In this document: positions 8,015-15,833 of the stretch, piece after piece
How the letters are laid out: every line of letters starts with the position of its first letter
Position numbering within the stretch: position 1 is the stretch's first letter
NCBI GenBank assembly: GCA_033648345.1
Contig: GCA_033648345.1_4121.1
Length of the DNA: 64,000 nt
Direction: 5' to 3' (one strand)
DNA from: a phage
The notes under the pieces: model-generated
Databases searched by the model: none
What the model saw: only the letters and a program-made list of their open reading frames with translations
What the model was told of the DNA's origin: nothing
Position numbers and translations under genes: made by a program

Positions 8015-8353
8015 ATGGAACAACATTTTGAATTAATTAATAAGGTATCATTTTATGTAGTATCGTTAATTTGGGTGTATTACATGTTTTGTTACATTAT
8101 TGCATTCTTCCGATACACAACCTTGTATCAACGCATATACTACGATGCACCCATTTCATTTATGATGTTCTGTGCATGTACGTGGGGGATAATTGAAGCA
8201 CTGGTATGTGGATATAGTACTGACGAATTAAATCTCGTATCGGTGTTGACATTACTAACAATTGCTACTATGATAGCTACTGTTCCGATATTTTTGCTCT
8301 TTAAACTGCTTCATCGCATCGATGAGTGGCGTAATAAAATCCCTGAAAAGTAA
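8015..8353 (+). CDS. small multi-pass membrane protein, paralogue family member 1
   Basis: 3-4 TM helices; FFRYTTLYQRIY motif; C-term WRNKIPEK. Confidence 0.75.
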   Translation: MEQHFELINKVSFYVVSLIWVYYMFCYIIAFFRYTTLYQRIYYDAPISFMMFCACTWGIIEALVCGYSTDELNLVSVLTLLTIATMIATVPIFLLFKLLHRIDEWRNKIPEK

Positions 8354-8362
8354 GGATTGATA

Positions 8363-8704
8363 ATGATTTTTTACACTAATGCGTTTGCTTATGCCGTTGC
8401 ATCAATCTACATTGTGTACTTCTTATTTGGTGGAGTACTGTACTTCTTTAAGTACAAAACATTGTTTAACCGAATGTATCCAAATCATCCAATTGTAGTA
8501 GTACTTTTGATTATTTCTGTTGCTCACATCATTGTAGAAACAATAATGGGTATCAGTGCAGTACATTACAGTCTAGGTACTATTGTAATTATTACTATGA
8601 TCATCGCATACATTTTAGTAATGGGTTTTGGTTTATTTGGAAATGTAGCAATGAAATTGTATAATCGAATCAAAACATTACGTGATAATCTACCGGAGCG
8701 TTGA
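8363..8704 (+). CDS. small multi-pass membrane protein, family member 2
   Basis: ATG 8363 after AAGGA; YFFKYKTLFNRMYP; C-term LRDNLPER. Confidence 0.75.
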   Translation: MIFYTNAFAYAVASIYIVYFLFGGVLYFFKYKTLFNRMYPNHPIVVVLLIISVAHIIVETIMGISAVHYSLGTIVIITMIIAYILVMGFGLFGNVAMKLYNRIKTLRDNLPER

Positions 8705-8705
8705 G

Positions 8706-9050
8706 ATGTATAATTTAAATTTAATATCATATATCATAACAACACTGTTTACTTTCTATGCCTTTGTTGGTATACTCCTACTGTACTTTAAATTTTATAA
8801 ACTTTTTGATCGTTTTTATCCGTCATTAGAACATGAATTCTTATTAGTGATGTACATATGTCTAACGTTTATGTCTACATTTTTCACTGCATCTGATGGT
8901 ATCATTGGTATTAAAGCTGAAGAACCAAATGGGAGTACGCTTGTTGCCTTTATTCTGGTAGGATTTTTCAGTACTTATATTACCTTTATTTCAGGATGTA
9001 CCGTGATTGATTATCTTGTGAAATTACGAGATAAAATGCCAAATCGATAG
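8706..9050 (+). CDS. small multi-pass membrane protein, family member 3
   Basis: ATG 8706; LYFKFYKLFDRFYP; C-term LRDKMPNR. Confidence 0.75.
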   Translation: MYNLNLISYIITTLFTFYAFVGILLLYFKFYKLFDRFYPSLEHEFLLVMYICLTFMSTFFTASDGIIGIKAEEPNGSTLVAFILVGFFSTYITFISGCTVIDYLVKLRDKMPNR

Positions 9051-9059
9051 GGGATTGCT

Positions 9060-9317
9060 ATGTTTGCATTGCGTAATAAAAATACAAAAGAGATTCTGTG
9101 TATCTCAACAGTATGGGATTGTGCAGGAAGTGAAATGATTCTCGAAGAAGGTTCAGGTGATTGTGTTTATGTTGTTCAGGATCGTCGCGAACTGGAATCA
9201 TTACTTGACGAATTTAATGCTGGTGGAAATCCTAAAAGTACTCAATTCCCTGAGATCAGGAATCCAGCACCACCAGGCTCTTATGAAATTCTACAACTGT
9301 GGGAGATGGATAAGTAA
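9060..9317 (+). CDS. hypothetical protein (N-terminus resembles 11179 product)
   Basis: MFALRNKNTKE vs MYALYNKEKKQ; contains one Chi octamer at 9219. Confidence 0.65.
   Translation: MFALRNKNTKEILCISTVWDCAGSEMILEEGSGDCVYVVQDRRELESLLDEFNAGGNPKSTQFPEIRNPAPPGSYEILQLWEMDK
9219..9226 (+). other. Chi octamer (in coding sequence)
   Basis: GCTGGTGG. Confidence 0.9.
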
Positions 9318-9697
9318 TGCGTCAAATGCACAAAGTAACCGAGCTAAACAAGCGTCTGATTAAACAATCAATGTTTGAGGATAAAGAGTCTTACTATAAC
9401 TTCAAACGTGCTGTAGAGGCTGCTATCCACATTCAGAAGCTTAAAGATAGTGGATGTATTATTCTCGAAAATGGTTCTGACGTTGTTACTGATGACTTCA
9501 GTGTAGCGTTTGATGTTTCACCTGATGGTTCGCTATCAATGCCACGCTTAGGGACTGGTGACATGACTGTGTGGGTAGGTTTCACTATGGGGAATGTACC
9601 AGGCACGGTGTATGTAGATGATGCTGAGTTGAAAGAAAGCTTCAAAAACTTATCGCATCTTGAACCACAATACGCACATGAAATGAATTTATTTTGA
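9317..9697 (+). CDS. hypothetical protein
   Basis: 126-aa ORF, start overlaps upstream stop (TAATG). Confidence 0.65.
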   Translation: MRQMHKVTELNKRLIKQSMFEDKESYYNFKRAVEAAIHIQKLKDSGCIILENGSDVVTDDFSVAFDVSPDGSLSMPRLGTGDMTVWVGFTMGNVPGTVYVDDAELKESFKNLSHLEPQYAHEMNLF

Positions 9698-9773
9698 GTT
9701 GACAAACTCATTCAGTACTGTATAATGTTTATCAAGGGGATGAACTTCTCATCCCCACAATCGAGGAATTGTC
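9698..9773 (+). promoter_or_regulatory. sigma70-like promoter + 5' stem-loop cassette (PeSL-like)
   Basis: TTGACA-N16-TATAAT with CAGTACTG abutting the -10; hairpin GGGGATGA-acttc-TCATCCCC; GAGGA RBS. Confidence 0.7.
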
Positions 9774-13732: not shown

Positions 13733-14079
13733 TGTTTGAATCTTATCTTGAGTTTTTAAAGAGTAGTTCTGTTGCACATTCAATTGCAGGGATTATTCTA
13801 ACAGGTTATGTAACATTTTGGGTAGTTATGTTTCTAGGATGGTATTTTAAACGACAATTCTATAAGCGTAATGGTGAAGATTTTATGAATTCTGTTATTA
13901 ATCAATCGTTGTTTGCATCAACATTGATAGCATGTATTGTAGCAACACTCACAGGAAAGGTACTGCCAGCATTCTCCGCAGTTTACGGTACATTGGGTAT
14001 GATATGTGTAGTTTTTTACTTGATCATTAAACTTTGTTGTGTTATGATTGACCTTCGAAACAAGATACCGGAGGAATGA
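13732..14079 (+). CDS. small multi-pass membrane protein, family member 5
   Basis: GWYFKRQFY; C-term LRNKIPEE; start overlaps upstream stop. Confidence 0.75.
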   Translation: MFESYLEFLKSSSVAHSIAGIILTGYVTFWVVMFLGWYFKRQFYKRNGEDFMNSVINQSLFASTLIACIVATLTGKVLPAFSAVYGTLGMICVVFYLIIKLCCVMIDLRNKIPEE

Positions 14080-14414
14080 TGGAATATTTTTTACACTTAC
14101 TGCCGTGGTATATGAAAGTTAGTACTATGTACTATATTCTTAGTGCTGGATTCTACTTTCTGATGTGGTTCTTCAAACGACCAATTTCAGTATTCATCTC
14201 TGATAACATGCTGCAATTAAAATTACACGCATGGTTTTTTATGGCGATGTTTATGCCTATTATTCACTACTCAATGATTAGTAGAGGTTTACGTTCTAAT
14301 GGTGAACCAATTATATTAGTATTCTATTGGGGTTCAACTATTGCATATGTAAGTTTGTTGTTGATCCCAGCCGTTCATAAATTACGTGCTAAAGTTCCTG
14401 ATGCGAGGTACTAA
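14076..14414 (+). CDS. small multi-pass membrane protein, family member 6
   Basis: MWFFKRPISVF; C-term LRAKVPDARY; ATGA overlap. Confidence 0.75.
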   Translation: MMEYFLHLLPWYMKVSTMYYILSAGFYFLMWFFKRPISVFISDNMLQLKLHAWFFMAMFMPIIHYSMISRGLRSNGEPIILVFYWGSTIAYVSLLLIPAVHKLRAKVPDARY

Positions 14415-14728
14415 TGGATATCGTAACATTGATTTACACGCTTTATTCATTCTATTTTATTATGTGTTGGGTTGGATTTTTATTTGTATTGAAGATGTTT
14501 GATTATGTTGAAAAACAGATAAAAGAATTTTGTATTCCTTTTATTGGGTCAACCATAATTAGTATTACTTGTTTGTATTATTTGGTATGTGATCCACCTG
14601 TTAATACAGCAATGATTGACTTCATGTTATTACCAACAACTGTTATTTTTTTATGTAGTCTGATGCCACCGATTAGTCGTGGGCTAACCGAATTTAGACG
14701 CAATCAAAAGCGTAAACGAGGGATGTGA
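14414..14728 (+). CDS. small multi-pass membrane protein, family member 7
   Basis: Same size and topology, basic C-term RRNQKRKRGM. Confidence 0.7.
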   Translation: MDIVTLIYTLYSFYFIMCWVGFLFVLKMFDYVEKQIKEFCIPFIGSTIISITCLYYLVCDPPVNTAMIDFMLLPTTVIFLCSLMPPISRGLTEFRRNQKRKRGM

Positions 14729-15096
14729 TGGAAATTGCACTTATTATATTAACTGCTATGTTGTTTATTAGTACAATTGTTATTATTGGCAAGTTCTTCT
14801 GTGTATCCTTCTTGGAAACCGTATACGATGAAATTGCTGATGATTATGAATTACATGCGGGATTTTTTACTACGTATTGGATTAGTTTATTACTACTTAT
14901 CACTGTATGGATTTTACATATATTCAAATGGGGTATGGTAGATGGTGATCCAGTACTGGCAATTATCTGTGTAGTGTTTGGTCTACTCGGTGGTGCTGTC
15001 CATAATCTGATGGTAATTTGGCAAACCGTACAATATGTATTAGTTCCACATTTTCAGAGAATGCATCAAAGCATCAAATACCGCAAACGAGGATAA
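14725..15096 (+). CDS. small multi-pass membrane protein, family member 8
   Basis: Same size and topology, C-term KYRKRG; overlapping start. Confidence 0.7.
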   Translation: MMEIALIILTAMLFISTIVIIGKFFCVSFLETVYDEIADDYELHAGFFTTYWISLLLLITVWILHIFKWGMVDGDPVLAIICVVFGLLGGAVHNLMVIWQTVQYVLVPHFQRMHQSIKYRKRG

Positions 15097-15097
15097 C

Positions 15098-15460
15098 ATG
15101 AATAATATTGAATTATCTTTTATTGGTCAATTAATGGTAATGGCGTATACATTTATCTTCTCACTGAATGCATTCGTGTGCATTGGGAAGTACTTCCATA
15201 AGCGACCATTATCAAATATATATGATGTAATACAAAGGAGATATAGTCCAGCATATACTGTGTTGAGTACAGCATTCAATTTTGGTTTTATTCTAATGCT
15301 GGTTGCATTATTAACATCGAGTTTAAATTTTATAACATTTGGTATTATGGTATGTTCACTAACACTGAGTGTGGTTATTCTCTGTGCATCCGTTGAGTTG
15401 ATGGCGTGGATGTATTATAAGATTTCCGAAATCCATGACCGTTTAGGTAAGAGGAACTAA
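15098..15460 (+). CDS. small multi-pass membrane protein, family member 9
   Basis: Same size and topology, C-term HDRLGKRN. Confidence 0.7.
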   Translation: MNNIELSFIGQLMVMAYTFIFSLNAFVCIGKYFHKRPLSNIYDVIQRRYSPAYTVLSTAFNFGFILMLVALLTSSLNFITFGIMVCSLTLSVVILCASVELMAWMYYKISEIHDRLGKRN

Positions 15461-15461
15461 A

Positions 15462-15833
15462 ATGAGTTATCGTGAAATATTTTCGATCATTACTATTATT
15501 GTTTTTAGTTTAGGTTCTTTGGTGTGGTTATTGTATTACTTCTGTGTAACCCCAGTATATAATATGCTAAATTCAGTACGCTCTGATGTTGGTATTGTTT
15601 CTTTTATTATCTTCATGGCATATTATATGCTAAGTATCACAGGTTTGGTTTTGGTTGTTATCTTTGACCTTGGACCGAATCAAGATGGTATGGAGGTGTG
15701 GGAATTGATAACGATGTTTGCATGTATGATACCTGCATTTGGTGTATGTGCTGGTGTATTTTATGGGTTATGTAAAGGTGTGAACTACTTAAAAAATATC
15801 CACAATACTATTCGTAAAAAACGTATGTTATAA
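15462..15833 (+). CDS. small multi-pass membrane protein, family member 10
   Basis: Same size and topology, C-term TIRKKRML. Confidence 0.7.
   Translation: MSYREIFSIITIIVFSLGSLVWLLYYFCVTPVYNMLNSVRSDVGIVSFIIFMAYYMLSITGLVLVVIFDLGPNQDGMEVWELITMFACMIPAFGVCAGVFYGLCKGVNYLKNIHNTIRKKRML

What the first reader, a model, noticed from the sequence alone, without database searches (positions are those of the whole stretch)
8015..15833. Ten paralogous small multi-pass membrane proteins in two operon-like clusters
Three genes at 8015-9050 and seven at 13394-15833 encode proteins of 104-123 aa. All have the same topology: three to four hydrophobic helices, a juxtamembrane (W/L)-Y/F-F-K/R-(K/R/Y) motif after helix 1, and a basic C-terminal tail, often L-R-x-K-I/M/V-P-E/D/N. 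They are tightly packed, with overlapping or adjacent stop and start codons. Phages rarely carry ten copies of one membrane-protein family. Possible roles include superinfection-exclusion or immunity proteins, holin or antiholin-like factors, or modulators of host envelope functions.
Basis: seen in the sequence. Interest (0 to 1): 0.5.

Follow-up and report, generated by a model that had tools for sequence, protein, structure and literature searches.

The report
Ten-copy membrane-protein family in jumbo phage
A giant E. coli phage carries ten diverged copies of one small three-helix inner-membrane protein in two probably early-expressed gene arrays; the arrays occur in all seven related enterobacterial jumbo-phage groups sampled but differ sharply between close relatives, which suggests a role in phage competition or host defence, though no function has been tested.

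Summary
The window comes from an Asteriusvirus, a 121Q/PBECO4-like jumbo coliphage. All ten ORFs exist at the stated positions. Each has three hydrophobic helices and a predicted N-out/C-in topology.

Profile comparisons against a null that preserves hydrophobicity link all ten into one family. An iterative HMM recruits 88 genes from 11 jumbo-phage loci and no other ORF.

The family is confined to this lineage. Only 14 cluster representatives matched among 1.84 billion proteins. Pfam, NCBIfam, PADLOC, PDB and BFVD gave no significant match.

Copy number is 4-11 per genome region. The main array always follows a T4 NrdC.10-like ATPase. Near-consensus sigma-70 promoters precede both operons, and the genes are translationally coupled.

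The arrays are hypervariable. Flanking genes are 95-100% identical to phage JNE01, while positional orthologues are 26-54% identical. dN/dS is 0.09-0.42, so these are real genes under purifying selection.

Function is untested. I favour early inner-membrane proteins that block competing phages or membrane-acting defences, analogous to P22 SieA or T4 Imm but not homologous. A holin role is unlikely.

The parts
7248..7277 (+). Sigma-70-type promoter (TTGACT-18-TATAAT with TG extension, 11/12). It is the nearest strong promoter upstream of the operon that holds cluster 1: orf7304, orf7702, P1-P3, orf9060, orf9317.
   Evidence: Function is inferred from sequence only.
8015..8353 (+). P1, 112 aa, three-helix membrane protein (PHROG 19285).
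8363..8704 (+). P2, 113 aa from ATG 8363 (the mechanical ORF starts at TTG 8357). Three-helix membrane protein (PHROG 19285).
8706..9050 (+). P3, 114 aa from ATG 8706 (the mechanical ORF starts at GTG 8682). Three-helix membrane protein with a weak PHROG 19285 match.
12495..12524 (+). Perfect sigma-70 consensus promoter (TTGACA-18-TATAAT, 12/12) upstream of the ATPase and cluster 2 operon.
12553..13326 (+). T4 NrdC.10-like P-loop/AAA ATPase. It is the conserved upstream neighbour of the main array in every array-bearing locus examined.
   Evidence: synteny
13336..13364 (+). Weaker promoter-like site (TTGACA-17-TACTAT, 10/12) in the 67-nt gap between the ATPase gene and P4.
13394..13732 (+). 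P4, 112 aa (PHROG 19454).
13732..14079 (+). P5, 115 aa (PHROG 19046). It is the hub of the family graph, linked to P1, P4, P6, P7 and P9.
14076..14414 (+). P6, 112 aa (PHROG 27396). Helices 1 and 2 are less hydrophobic than in the other members.
14414..14728 (+). P7, 104 aa (PHROG 33258). It is the member most weakly linked to the rest.
14728..15096 (+). P8, 122 aa from ATG 14728 (the mechanical ORF starts at GTG 14725). PHROG 26405.
15098..15460 (+). P9, 120 aa. It has no strong PHROG match and is linked to P8, P5 and P10.
15462..15833 (+). P10, 123 aa (PHROG 27618).
15838..15864 (.). 12-bp-stem hairpin between the end of the array and the convergent RCC1-like gene. It is terminator-like on both strands.

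Best explanation
Shown by computation:
- The ten genes are diverged tandem duplicates of one family found only in this lineage.
- Each encodes a protein of about 105-125 aa with three transmembrane helices.
- Charge distribution predicts the N-terminus and loop 2 in the periplasm, and loop 1 and the basic tail in the cytoplasm.
- The genes are real and under purifying selection.
- The family occurs in 4-11 copies per genome region in every enterobacterial Rak2-like jumbo phage examined. The main array always lies directly downstream of an NrdC.10-like ATPase.
- The arrays are replaced as divergent cassettes between otherwise near-identical genomes.
- Within orthologue groups, helix 1 and cytoplasmic loop 1 are the most conserved parts. 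The hairpin formed by helix 2, the periplasmic loop and helix 3 is the most variable.

Inferred from sequence signals:
- Both arrays are transcribed early by host sigma-70 RNA polymerase.
- Translation within each array is coupled.

Inferred by analogy (the mechanism I commit to):
- The proteins insert into the host inner membrane soon after infection and act as a set of binders with different specificities.
- The variable helix 2 - loop - helix 3 hairpin of each paralogue would engage a different membrane-embedded target. Candidate targets are the inner-membrane entry route of a competing phage, or a membrane-permeabilising defence or bacteriocin effector.
- The conserved WFF and [RH]xK[IL] motifs near the cytoplasmic face would serve insertion, topology or stability.
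- The net effect would be superinfection exclusion or membrane protection during the infection cycle.
For: One family:
- hhalign against a topology-preserving null.
- Leave-one-group-out HMM test.
- Cross-hits between group HMMs, and between the proteins and PHROG families.
- The iterative HMM converged at 88 of 669 ORFs. All 88 lie on the coding strand inside arrays. There were none in XaC1, PA5oct or T4.

Topology: summed over 75 sequences, K+R is 545 in loop 1 plus the tail, against 65 in the N-terminus plus loop 2. The AlphaFold2 model of P1 has three long helices and mean pLDDT 72.

Restricted distribution:
- 14 representatives among 1.84 billion proteins.
- 23 and 19 proteins in the two searches of the 5.8-billion-protein collection. 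Every source-given name is a jumbo phage, or E. coli on a roughly 350-kb contig.

Early expression:
- 37 promoters matching at least 11 of 12 consensus positions, against 3.8 in shuffles. Of these, 32 are on the + strand in the + strand gene blocks.
- Promoters at 7248 and 12495, and a hairpin at 15838.
- Stop-to-start gaps of -4 to +1 nt in cluster 2, with Shine-Dalgarno sequences inside the upstream tails.

Real genes: dN/dS is 0.09-0.42, against 0.03-0.27 for flanking genes.

Hypervariability:
- Compared with JNE01, five flanking genes between the two clusters are 95-100% identical at the protein level, while the array members are 26-54% identical.
- DNA similarity stops at the array borders.
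- Copy number changes between relatives: P4 is doubled in 121Q and ph0011, P7 is doubled in JNE01, and cluster 1 has a single gene in A4.

Variable half: mean identity within orthologue groups is 0.68 for helix 1 and 0.70 for loop 1, against 0.53, 0.55 and 0.48 for helix 2, loop 2 and helix 3.

[quoted passage not shown] It has three sequence types less than 30% identical, with similar predicted helices and a conserved motif predicted on the cytoplasmic side. It blocks DNA injection (PMC10883804).
Against: - No functional data exist for any member.
- There is no sequence or fold similarity to any characterised exclusion, immunity or anti-defence protein.
- Known exclusion proteins are single-copy. 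Ten co-retained paralogues in a largely conserved order from Asteriusvirus to RaK2, together with translational coupling, could equally point to a hetero-oligomeric complex.
- dN/dS shows no gene-wide positive selection.
- Early timing rests on promoter consensus only.
- Transmembrane segments were called with a hydropathy window, not a trained predictor.
Confidence: 0.35

Rival explanations
1. The proteins are subunits of one hetero-oligomeric inner-membrane complex. The complex might work with, or anchor, the NrdC.10-like ATPase encoded just upstream. Each paralogue would have a fixed place in the assembly.
For: - The ATPase and the array are adjacent in Asteriusvirus, RaK2, Munch, EJP2, Serratia BF, Yersinia fHe-Yen9-04 and Erwinia Hallingskeid.
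- Paralogue order is largely conserved between Asteriusvirus and RaK2.
- Translational coupling would favour production of the members together.
- The motifs shared by the whole family lie near the cytoplasmic face.
Against: - Copy number ranges from 4 to 11, with lineage-specific duplications and losses.
- ATPase alleles do not co-vary with array type. The window and JNE01 share a 99% identical ATPase but their arrays are 32-54% identical. The window and 121Q have 59% identical ATPases but arrays 64-91% identical.
- XaC1, PA5oct and T4 have the ATPase without any array.
- Cluster 1 lies 3.5 kb upstream of the ATPase gene, in a separate promoter unit.
Confidence: 0.17
2. The proteins are holin, antiholin or pinholin-like factors that control lysis timing.
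For: - Size (104-123 aa), three transmembrane helices, predicted N-out/C-in topology and a charged basic C-terminal tail.
- From my own knowledge, these features match the textbook description of class I holins such as lambda S105.
- The endolysin of Rak2-like phages is reported to have an N-terminal transmembrane domain (PMC5259590), and I found no holin assigned for this group.
Against: - Near-consensus sigma-70 promoters lie upstream of both operons, in a promoter-dense block that is probably early.
- There is no TATAAATA motif near the arrays.
- No neighbouring gene that was scanned matched a lysozyme or spanin family.
- No Pfam or PHROG holin family matched, even at E up to 1.
- Ten early-made hole-formers would be expected to be lethal, and hypervariability is not typical of lysis genes.
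Confidence: 0.1
3. The proteins are viroporin-like or membrane-remodelling host-takeover factors. They would change ion permeability, proton-motive force or membrane organisation for the phage's own replication, independent of competitors.
For: - They are small, probably early, hydrophobic proteins made in bulk from strong promoters.
- PHROG 16874, weakly matched by P5 (1e-5) and P7 (0.011), is filed under 'moron, auxiliary metabolic gene and host takeover'.
Against: - No polar or charged residue is conserved inside the helices across 88 members.
- A housekeeping role does not explain cassette replacement between near-identical genomes, or copy-number turnover.
- The family is absent from the Xanthomonas and Pseudomonas relatives.
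Confidence: 0.12
4. The ORFs are decaying or neutral duplicates without function, and look alike only through composition.
For: All are annotated 'hypothetical protein' or 'membrane protein' in the records examined, and the sequences evolve quickly.
Against: - dN/dS is below 0.45 for every member.
- Intact orthologues occur in several jumbo-phage genera.
- Each gene has its own Shine-Dalgarno sequence.
- Profile scores far exceed a hydrophobicity-preserving null.
Confidence: 0.02

Closest known systems
PHROG families 19285, 19454, 19046, 27396, 33258, 26405 and 27618 (all 'unknown function'), plus 16874 ('membrane protein')
   Same: Nine of the ten proteins match one of these profiles over their full length, with E from 1e-46 to 1e-60 for eight and 1e-3 for P3. 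These entries are the database records of this same family.
   Different: The databases split the proteins into at least seven unrelated-looking families with no function assigned. Here they are shown to form one superfamily arranged in conserved arrays. P9 has no strong PHROG match.
P22 SieA superinfection-exclusion protein
   Same: - It is an inner-membrane protein with three predicted transmembrane domains.
- Its extant sequence types are less than 30% identical but have very similar predicted helices.
- It has a conserved motif predicted on the cytoplasmic side near the C-terminus.
- It blocks DNA injection by related phages.
All of this is from PMC10883804.
   Different: - SieA is 162-164 aa, single-copy and expressed from a prophage.
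- There is no detectable sequence relationship: hhalign probability 0.5% against the 59-sequence family profile.
- Exclusion activity has not been tested for the present family.
T4 Imm (immunity to superinfection)
   Same: From my own knowledge, Imm is a small polytopic inner-membrane protein made early by a lytic myovirus, and it blocks genome entry of superinfecting T-even phages.
   Different: - From memory, Imm is about 83 aa with two helices and is single-copy.
- The Pfam scan listed no superinfection-immunity family, even at E up to 1.
- No family member was found in the T4 region around nrdC.10.
Class I holins (for example lambda S105)
   Same: About 100-120 aa, three transmembrane helices, N-out/C-in topology and a charged basic C-terminal tail. 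The holin properties are from my own knowledge; the properties of the present family are.
   Different: - The present genes sit behind promoters that are probably early rather than late.
- There are ten copies.
- No scanned neighbour matched a lysis-enzyme family.
- No holin family matched.
- The arrays are hypervariable.
Immunity proteins of pore-forming colicins (E1/Ia type)
   Same: From my own knowledge, these are inner-membrane proteins of about 100-115 aa with three helices. They neutralise a membrane-inserting toxin through helix-helix contacts, and they diversify along with their targets.
   Different: They are encoded on plasmids next to their toxin gene. The Pfam and NCBIfam scans listed no colicin-immunity family. 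No toxin partner is evident here.

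Membership tests
Rak2-like jumbo-phage three-helix array family (defined here; spans PHROGs 19285, 19454, 19046, 27396, 33258, 26405 and 27618) | Profile-level sequence relationship to other members, above a hydrophobicity-preserving null | tested here: met
   - All ten are connected by hhalign scores above the 99th percentile of the null. Nine pairs exceed every null score.
- The converged HMM gives E of 2e-17 or better for each of the ten, but they are part of its training set.
- P7 and P6 are the weakest members.
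Rak2-like jumbo-phage three-helix array family (defined here; spans PHROGs 19285, 19454, 19046, 27396, 33258, 26405 and 27618) | About 100-130 aa with three transmembrane helices and N-out/C-in charge bias | tested here: met
   - Hydropathy peaks.
- K+R of 545 on the predicted inside against 65 on the outside, over 75 sequences.
- AlphaFold2 model with three long helices.
- No trained topology predictor was available.
Rak2-like jumbo-phage three-helix array family (defined here; spans PHROGs 19285, 19454, 19046, 27396, 33258, 26405 and 27618) | Signature residues: Phe at the cytoplasmic end of helix 1, and [RH]-x-K-[IL] after helix 3 | tested here: met
   Phe in 82 of 88 members and R or H in 86 of 88. 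The Phe is invariant among the ten window proteins.
Rak2-like jumbo-phage three-helix array family (defined here; spans PHROGs 19285, 19454, 19046, 27396, 33258, 26405 and 27618) | Tandem array directly downstream of the NrdC.10-like ATPase | tested here: met
   Met for P4-P10 (synteny). P1-P3 form a second cluster about 3.5 kb upstream of the ATPase gene. Several relatives also have this second cluster.
Holins (class I) | Three transmembrane helices, N-out/C-in, charged C-terminal tail | tested here: met
Holins (class I) | Sequence match to a described holin family | tested here: not met
   No holin family appeared in Pfam or PHROGs at E up to 1.
Holins (class I) | Late expression, usually in a lysis cassette with an endolysin or spanin | tested here: not met
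   - Near-consensus sigma-70 promoters lie upstream, and there is no TATAAATA motif nearby.
- Scanned neighbours gave no lysis-enzyme match.
- Timing is inferred from sequence only.
Holins (class I) | Timed, lethal permeabilisation of the inner membrane | not testable with these tools
   Requires induction and complementation experiments.
P22 SieA-type exclusion proteins | Sequence homology to SieA | tested here: not met
   hhalign of family profile A3 against P22 SieA: probability 0.5%.
P22 SieA-type exclusion proteins | Blocks genome entry of a superinfecting phage at the inner membrane | not testable with these tools
   Requires plating, potassium-efflux or DNA-entry assays.
T4 Imm superinfection immunity | Match to the Pfam superinfection-immunity model | tested here: not met
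   No such family appeared in the Pfam scan at E up to 1.
Pore-forming colicin immunity proteins | Match to the Pfam or NCBIfam colicin-immunity models | tested here: not met
   No such family appeared in the scans at E up to 1.
Known anti-phage defence proteins (PADLOC) | Match to any PADLOC model | tested here: not met
   Zero matches at E up to 1 for all ten proteins.

The most novel reading that the evidence does not exclude
The arrays are an exchangeable, multi-specific membrane shield. Each paralogue would be an orphan immunity protein that neutralises a different membrane-targeting threat: the entry conduit of a rival phage, a pore-forming bacteriocin, or a membrane-disrupting abortive-infection effector. 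Whole arrays would be swapped between jumbo phages as cassettes. This would be a viral counterpart of the orphan immunity-gene clusters seen in bacterial toxin systems.
Probability: 0.15. Interest if true: 0.75.

Novelty: new variant of a known kind. Interest (0 to 1): 0.45.

Why it matters
Jumbo phages of the Rak2/121Q group are being isolated for therapy against E. coli, Klebsiella and Salmonella, yet most of their genes have no assigned function.

This work turns at least seven separate 'unknown function' database families into one defined family. The family has a clear architecture, a fixed genomic address and a signature of rapid cassette turnover. That makes it a concrete candidate locus for competition between phages or for counter-defence.

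If the paralogues do have distinct targets, the arrays would be a compact source of small membrane-protein inhibitors. They could also help explain which jumbo phages can co-infect or exclude each other. That question matters for designing phage cocktails.

The experiments needed are simple: express each gene, challenge with phages and colicins, and delete the arrays.

Tried and rejected
- Notes reading 'Phi92_gp231/233/234' on ph0011 genes suggested a link to phage phi92. The phi92 genes are unrelated small proteins and BLASTP found no alignment. I treat the notes as an annotation artefact.
- I looked for members next to the NrdC.10-like ATPase of T4, Pseudomonas PA5oct and Xanthomonas XaC1. 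None was found.
- Pfam, NCBIfam and PADLOC scans gave only insignificant matches to transmembrane regions.
- Foldseek of the P1 model against PDB and BFVD gave nothing with E below 0.5. The best viral matches included a putative membrane protein of phage CBB, but at E 1.9.
- The afdb50 fold library was unavailable.
- The family profile searched against PDB sequences matched only transmembrane segments of transporters.
- The 33-sequence alignment A2 was badly registered at the N-terminus and was not used.
- Literature searches found no description of these arrays. I checked the CBB, Sharanji and RaK2 papers, the jumbo-phage comparative review and a phage TnSeq preprint.
- I considered co-variation between ATPase allele and array type as evidence for a complex. 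The data contradict it.

Full report
**Source of the window.** The region 7000-17000 is 97-98% identical to Escherichia phages CMSTMSU, EC.P1 and Ecwhy_1, and 84-90% identical over shared parts to 121Q and ph0011. All are Asteriusvirus, jumbo myophages of about 350 kb. I call the ten ORFs P1-P3 (cluster 1) and P4-P10 (cluster 2).

**Checking the observation.**
- All ten ORFs are present.
- Annotated starts in relatives, database orthologues and Shine-Dalgarno positions indicate ATG starts at 8363 (P2), 8706 (P3) and 14728 (P8).
- Gaps between stop and next start are -4 to +1 nt in cluster 2, and 9 and 1 nt in cluster 1.
- Each protein has three hydropathy peaks at matching positions.
- Over 75 family sequences, loop 1 plus the C-terminal tail hold 545 K+R. 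The N-terminus plus loop 2 hold 65, and those two regions are net acidic. By the positive-inside rule this gives N-out/C-in.
- An AlphaFold2 model of P1 built on the ten-sequence alignment shows three long helices and a short helix in loop 1, with mean pLDDT 72.

**Is it one family?**
- Pairwise BLASTP is significant only for P1-P2, P2-P3 and P4-P5.
- I built orthologue-group alignments from five related loci and from database hits, then compared them with hhalign.
- The null was the same alignments with columns shuffled in blocks of seven. The 540 null scores had mean 13.9, 99th percentile 23.8 and maximum 27.9.
- Nine pairs beat every null score: P1-P2 68.5, P2-P3 62.0, P1-P3 53.5, P5-P6 50.9, P8-P10 38.6, P1-P5 35.0, P4-P5 32.0, P8-P9 31.8 and P5-P9 28.7.
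- Seven more pairs beat the 99th percentile, including P5-P7 at 26.1 and P6-P8 at 27.5. The alignments are collinear, and the graph connects all ten.
- An earlier control with reversed alignments peaked at 18.3, and an unrelated 83-aa membrane ORF group never exceeded 13.8.
- In the leave-one-group-out HMM test, the omitted member was the top non-training hit among 252 window ORFs in nine of ten cases. P6 failed this test but is firmly tied to P5.
- An iterative HMM seeded with the ten converged after five rounds. It recruited 88 of 669 ORFs from 14 loci (both strands). Every hit lies on the coding strand inside an array. There were none in XaC1, PA5oct or T4, and no other small membrane ORF was recruited.

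**Distribution.**
- The ten-sequence profile, searched against 1.84 billion representatives, found 14 proteins of 56-123 aa. Most were 99-123 aa.
- Two word-indexed searches of 5.8 billion proteins found 23 and 19 proteins. Wherever a source gives a name, it is a jumbo phage, or E. coli on a roughly 350-kb contig.
- tblastn of single members finds only Asteriusvirus and Alcyoneusvirus.
- Using the upstream ATPase as an anchor, I found arrays at the same position in:
  - RaK2 (8 members);
  - Salmonella phage Munch (3, plus 1 in a second cluster);
  - E. coli phage EJP2 (6);
  - Serratia phage BF (5);
  - Yersinia phage fHe-Yen9-04 (5);
  - Erwinia phage Hallingskeid (11).
- Xanthomonas XaC1 and Pseudomonas PA5oct have the ATPase but no array.
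- In the sample examined, the family is therefore confined to Rak2-like jumbo phages with enterobacterial hosts.

**Family signature.** Across the 88 members there is a near-invariant Phe at the cytoplasmic end of helix 1 ([GL]-[WKY]-[FY]-F, 82 of 88). There is a frequent Gly in the periplasmic loop. R or H occurs after helix 3 in [RH]-x-K-[IL] (86 of 88). No charged or polar residue is conserved inside the helices.

The last few codons of each gene contain the Shine-Dalgarno sequence of the next gene. Examples are CCGGAGGA, which encodes P-E-E, and CGAGGA, which encodes R-G. The extreme C-terminal E/R/G/K residues are therefore partly a nucleotide-level constraint and should not be over-read as a protein motif.

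**Expression signals.**
- The window has 37 sigma-70 promoter matches at 11 or more of 12 positions, against 3.8 in shuffles. Of these, 32 are on the + strand within 0.2-12.5 kb and 40.7-62.3 kb. None lies in the minus-strand block at 16-40 kb.
- A site at 7248-7277 (11/12) precedes orf7304, orf7702, P1-P3, orf9060 and orf9317.
- A perfect site at 12495-12524 precedes the ATPase and P4-P10.
- A weaker site lies in the gap between the ATPase gene and P4.
- A 12-bp-stem hairpin at 15838-15864 ends the array.
- I infer early transcription by host polymerase. This is not shown experimentally, and I found no transcriptome for this phage group.

**Evolution.**
- dN/dS against ph0011 and 121Q is 0.09-0.42 for the ten genes and 0.03-0.27 for flanking genes. 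The ten are therefore functional genes under somewhat relaxed constraint.
- The most striking result is cassette-like hypervariability. Against JNE01, orf9774, orf10340, C83, orf10806 and the ATPase are 95-100% identical at the protein level. P1-P10 are only 26-54% identical to their positional counterparts. DNA similarity ends shortly after the array borders.
- The ATPase itself has two alleles (98-99% and 59% identity to the window). These do not track array type.
- Copy number changes between close relatives.
- Order is largely kept between Asteriusvirus and RaK2, so the duplications are old.
- Within orthologue groups, helix 1 and loop 1 are the most conserved parts (0.68 and 0.70). Helix 2, loop 2 and helix 3 are the least conserved (0.53, 0.55 and 0.48).

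**Comparison with known families.**
- There are no significant matches in Pfam, NCBIfam or PADLOC.
- There are none in PDB by fold or by sequence, and none in BFVD.
- PHROGs holds the members in at least seven separate families of unknown function.
- The closest functional analogue I could document is P22 SieA. It is an inner-membrane protein with three predicted transmembrane domains. It has three sequence types under 30% identical, with similar predicted helices and a conserved motif predicted on the cytoplasmic side. It blocks DNA injection (PMC10883804).
- There is no homology to SieA: hhalign probability is 0.5%.
- Class I holins share the size, topology and charged tail. However, the promoter type, the scanned neighbours, the copy number and the lack of any holin match argue against that role.

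**Interpretation.**
- High confidence (about 0.9): this is one lineage-restricted family of three-helix proteins, predicted N-out/C-in, expanded by tandem duplication, under selection and exchanged as divergent cassettes.
- The probable early promoters and the inner-membrane location are inferred from sequence only.
- Lower confidence (about 0.35): the proteins act as a diversified set of inner-membrane binders that exclude competing phages or neutralise membrane-acting defences.
- Rivals: a hetero-oligomeric complex, possibly with the ATPase (0.17); host-takeover viroporin-like proteins (0.12); lysis control (0.10).
- The finding is real and moderately interesting. Its value lies in defining a testable locus, not in a demonstrated new mechanism.

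Noticed in passing
window 15869-34882, minus strand: About 16 tandem ORFs of 264-449 aa lie here. Six of the seven I scanned are RCC1-like beta-propeller proteins (Pfam PF25390, PF00415). This second large paralogue expansion is convergent with the membrane-protein array. Related phages annotate these genes as 'DNA condensation protein'.
   Followed up: partly
window 237-12524 and 40682-62283, + strand: The window has 37 near-consensus sigma-70 promoters (at least 11 of 12 positions), against 3.8 expected. Many are perfect TTGACA-16-TATAAT sites spaced 270-1000 bp apart between 51 and 56 kb. None lies in the 16-40 kb minus-strand block.
   Followed up: partly
window 11605-11630, 12153-12170 and 6560-6585 (minus strand): A repeated hairpin of the form AAAGGGTTGACTTCGGTCAGCCCTTT carries a TTGAC -35 box in its stem and is followed by a TATAAT. 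It looks like a combined terminator and promoter element between early transcription units.
   Followed up: no
window 12553-13326: The T4 NrdC.10-like ATPase occurs as two alleles within Asteriusvirus. ph0011 and JNE01 are 98-99% identical to the window copy, while 121Q and A4 are 59% identical. The 121Q-type allele is closer to the RaK2 ATPase (70%) than the window-type allele is (54%).
   Followed up: partly
window 10545-10796: This 83-aa hydrophobic protein is unrelated to the family and is 96-99% identical in all four Asteriusvirus loci compared. That is a sharp contrast with the hypervariable arrays a few kb away.
   Followed up: partly
window 6625-6876 and 7304-7717: Two small ORFs have N-terminal sequences that look like signal peptides. 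They lie just upstream of cluster 1. orf7304 has no counterpart in the five related loci compared.
   Followed up: no
window 2005-2241 and 3868-4164: Two further small ORFs (78 and 98 aa) each have three hydrophobic segments. The family HMMs did not recruit them.
   Followed up: partly
L002 (ph0011) 7464-7733, 12189-12962 and 13366-13704: The GenBank notes 'Phi92_gp234', 'Phi92_gp231' and 'Phi92_gp233' point to phi92 genes that are small hypothetical proteins. The one pair I tested (the window orthologue of the 13366-13704 gene against phi92 gp233) showed no similarity. The notes look like an annotation-pipeline artefact.
   Followed up: yes
L005 (121Q) 9683-9998: The P7 orthologue of 121Q is annotated as two short CDSs (genes 228 and 229). 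tblastn aligns only 57 residues of the window P7. This suggests a frameshift or a sequencing error in that record.
   Followed up: no
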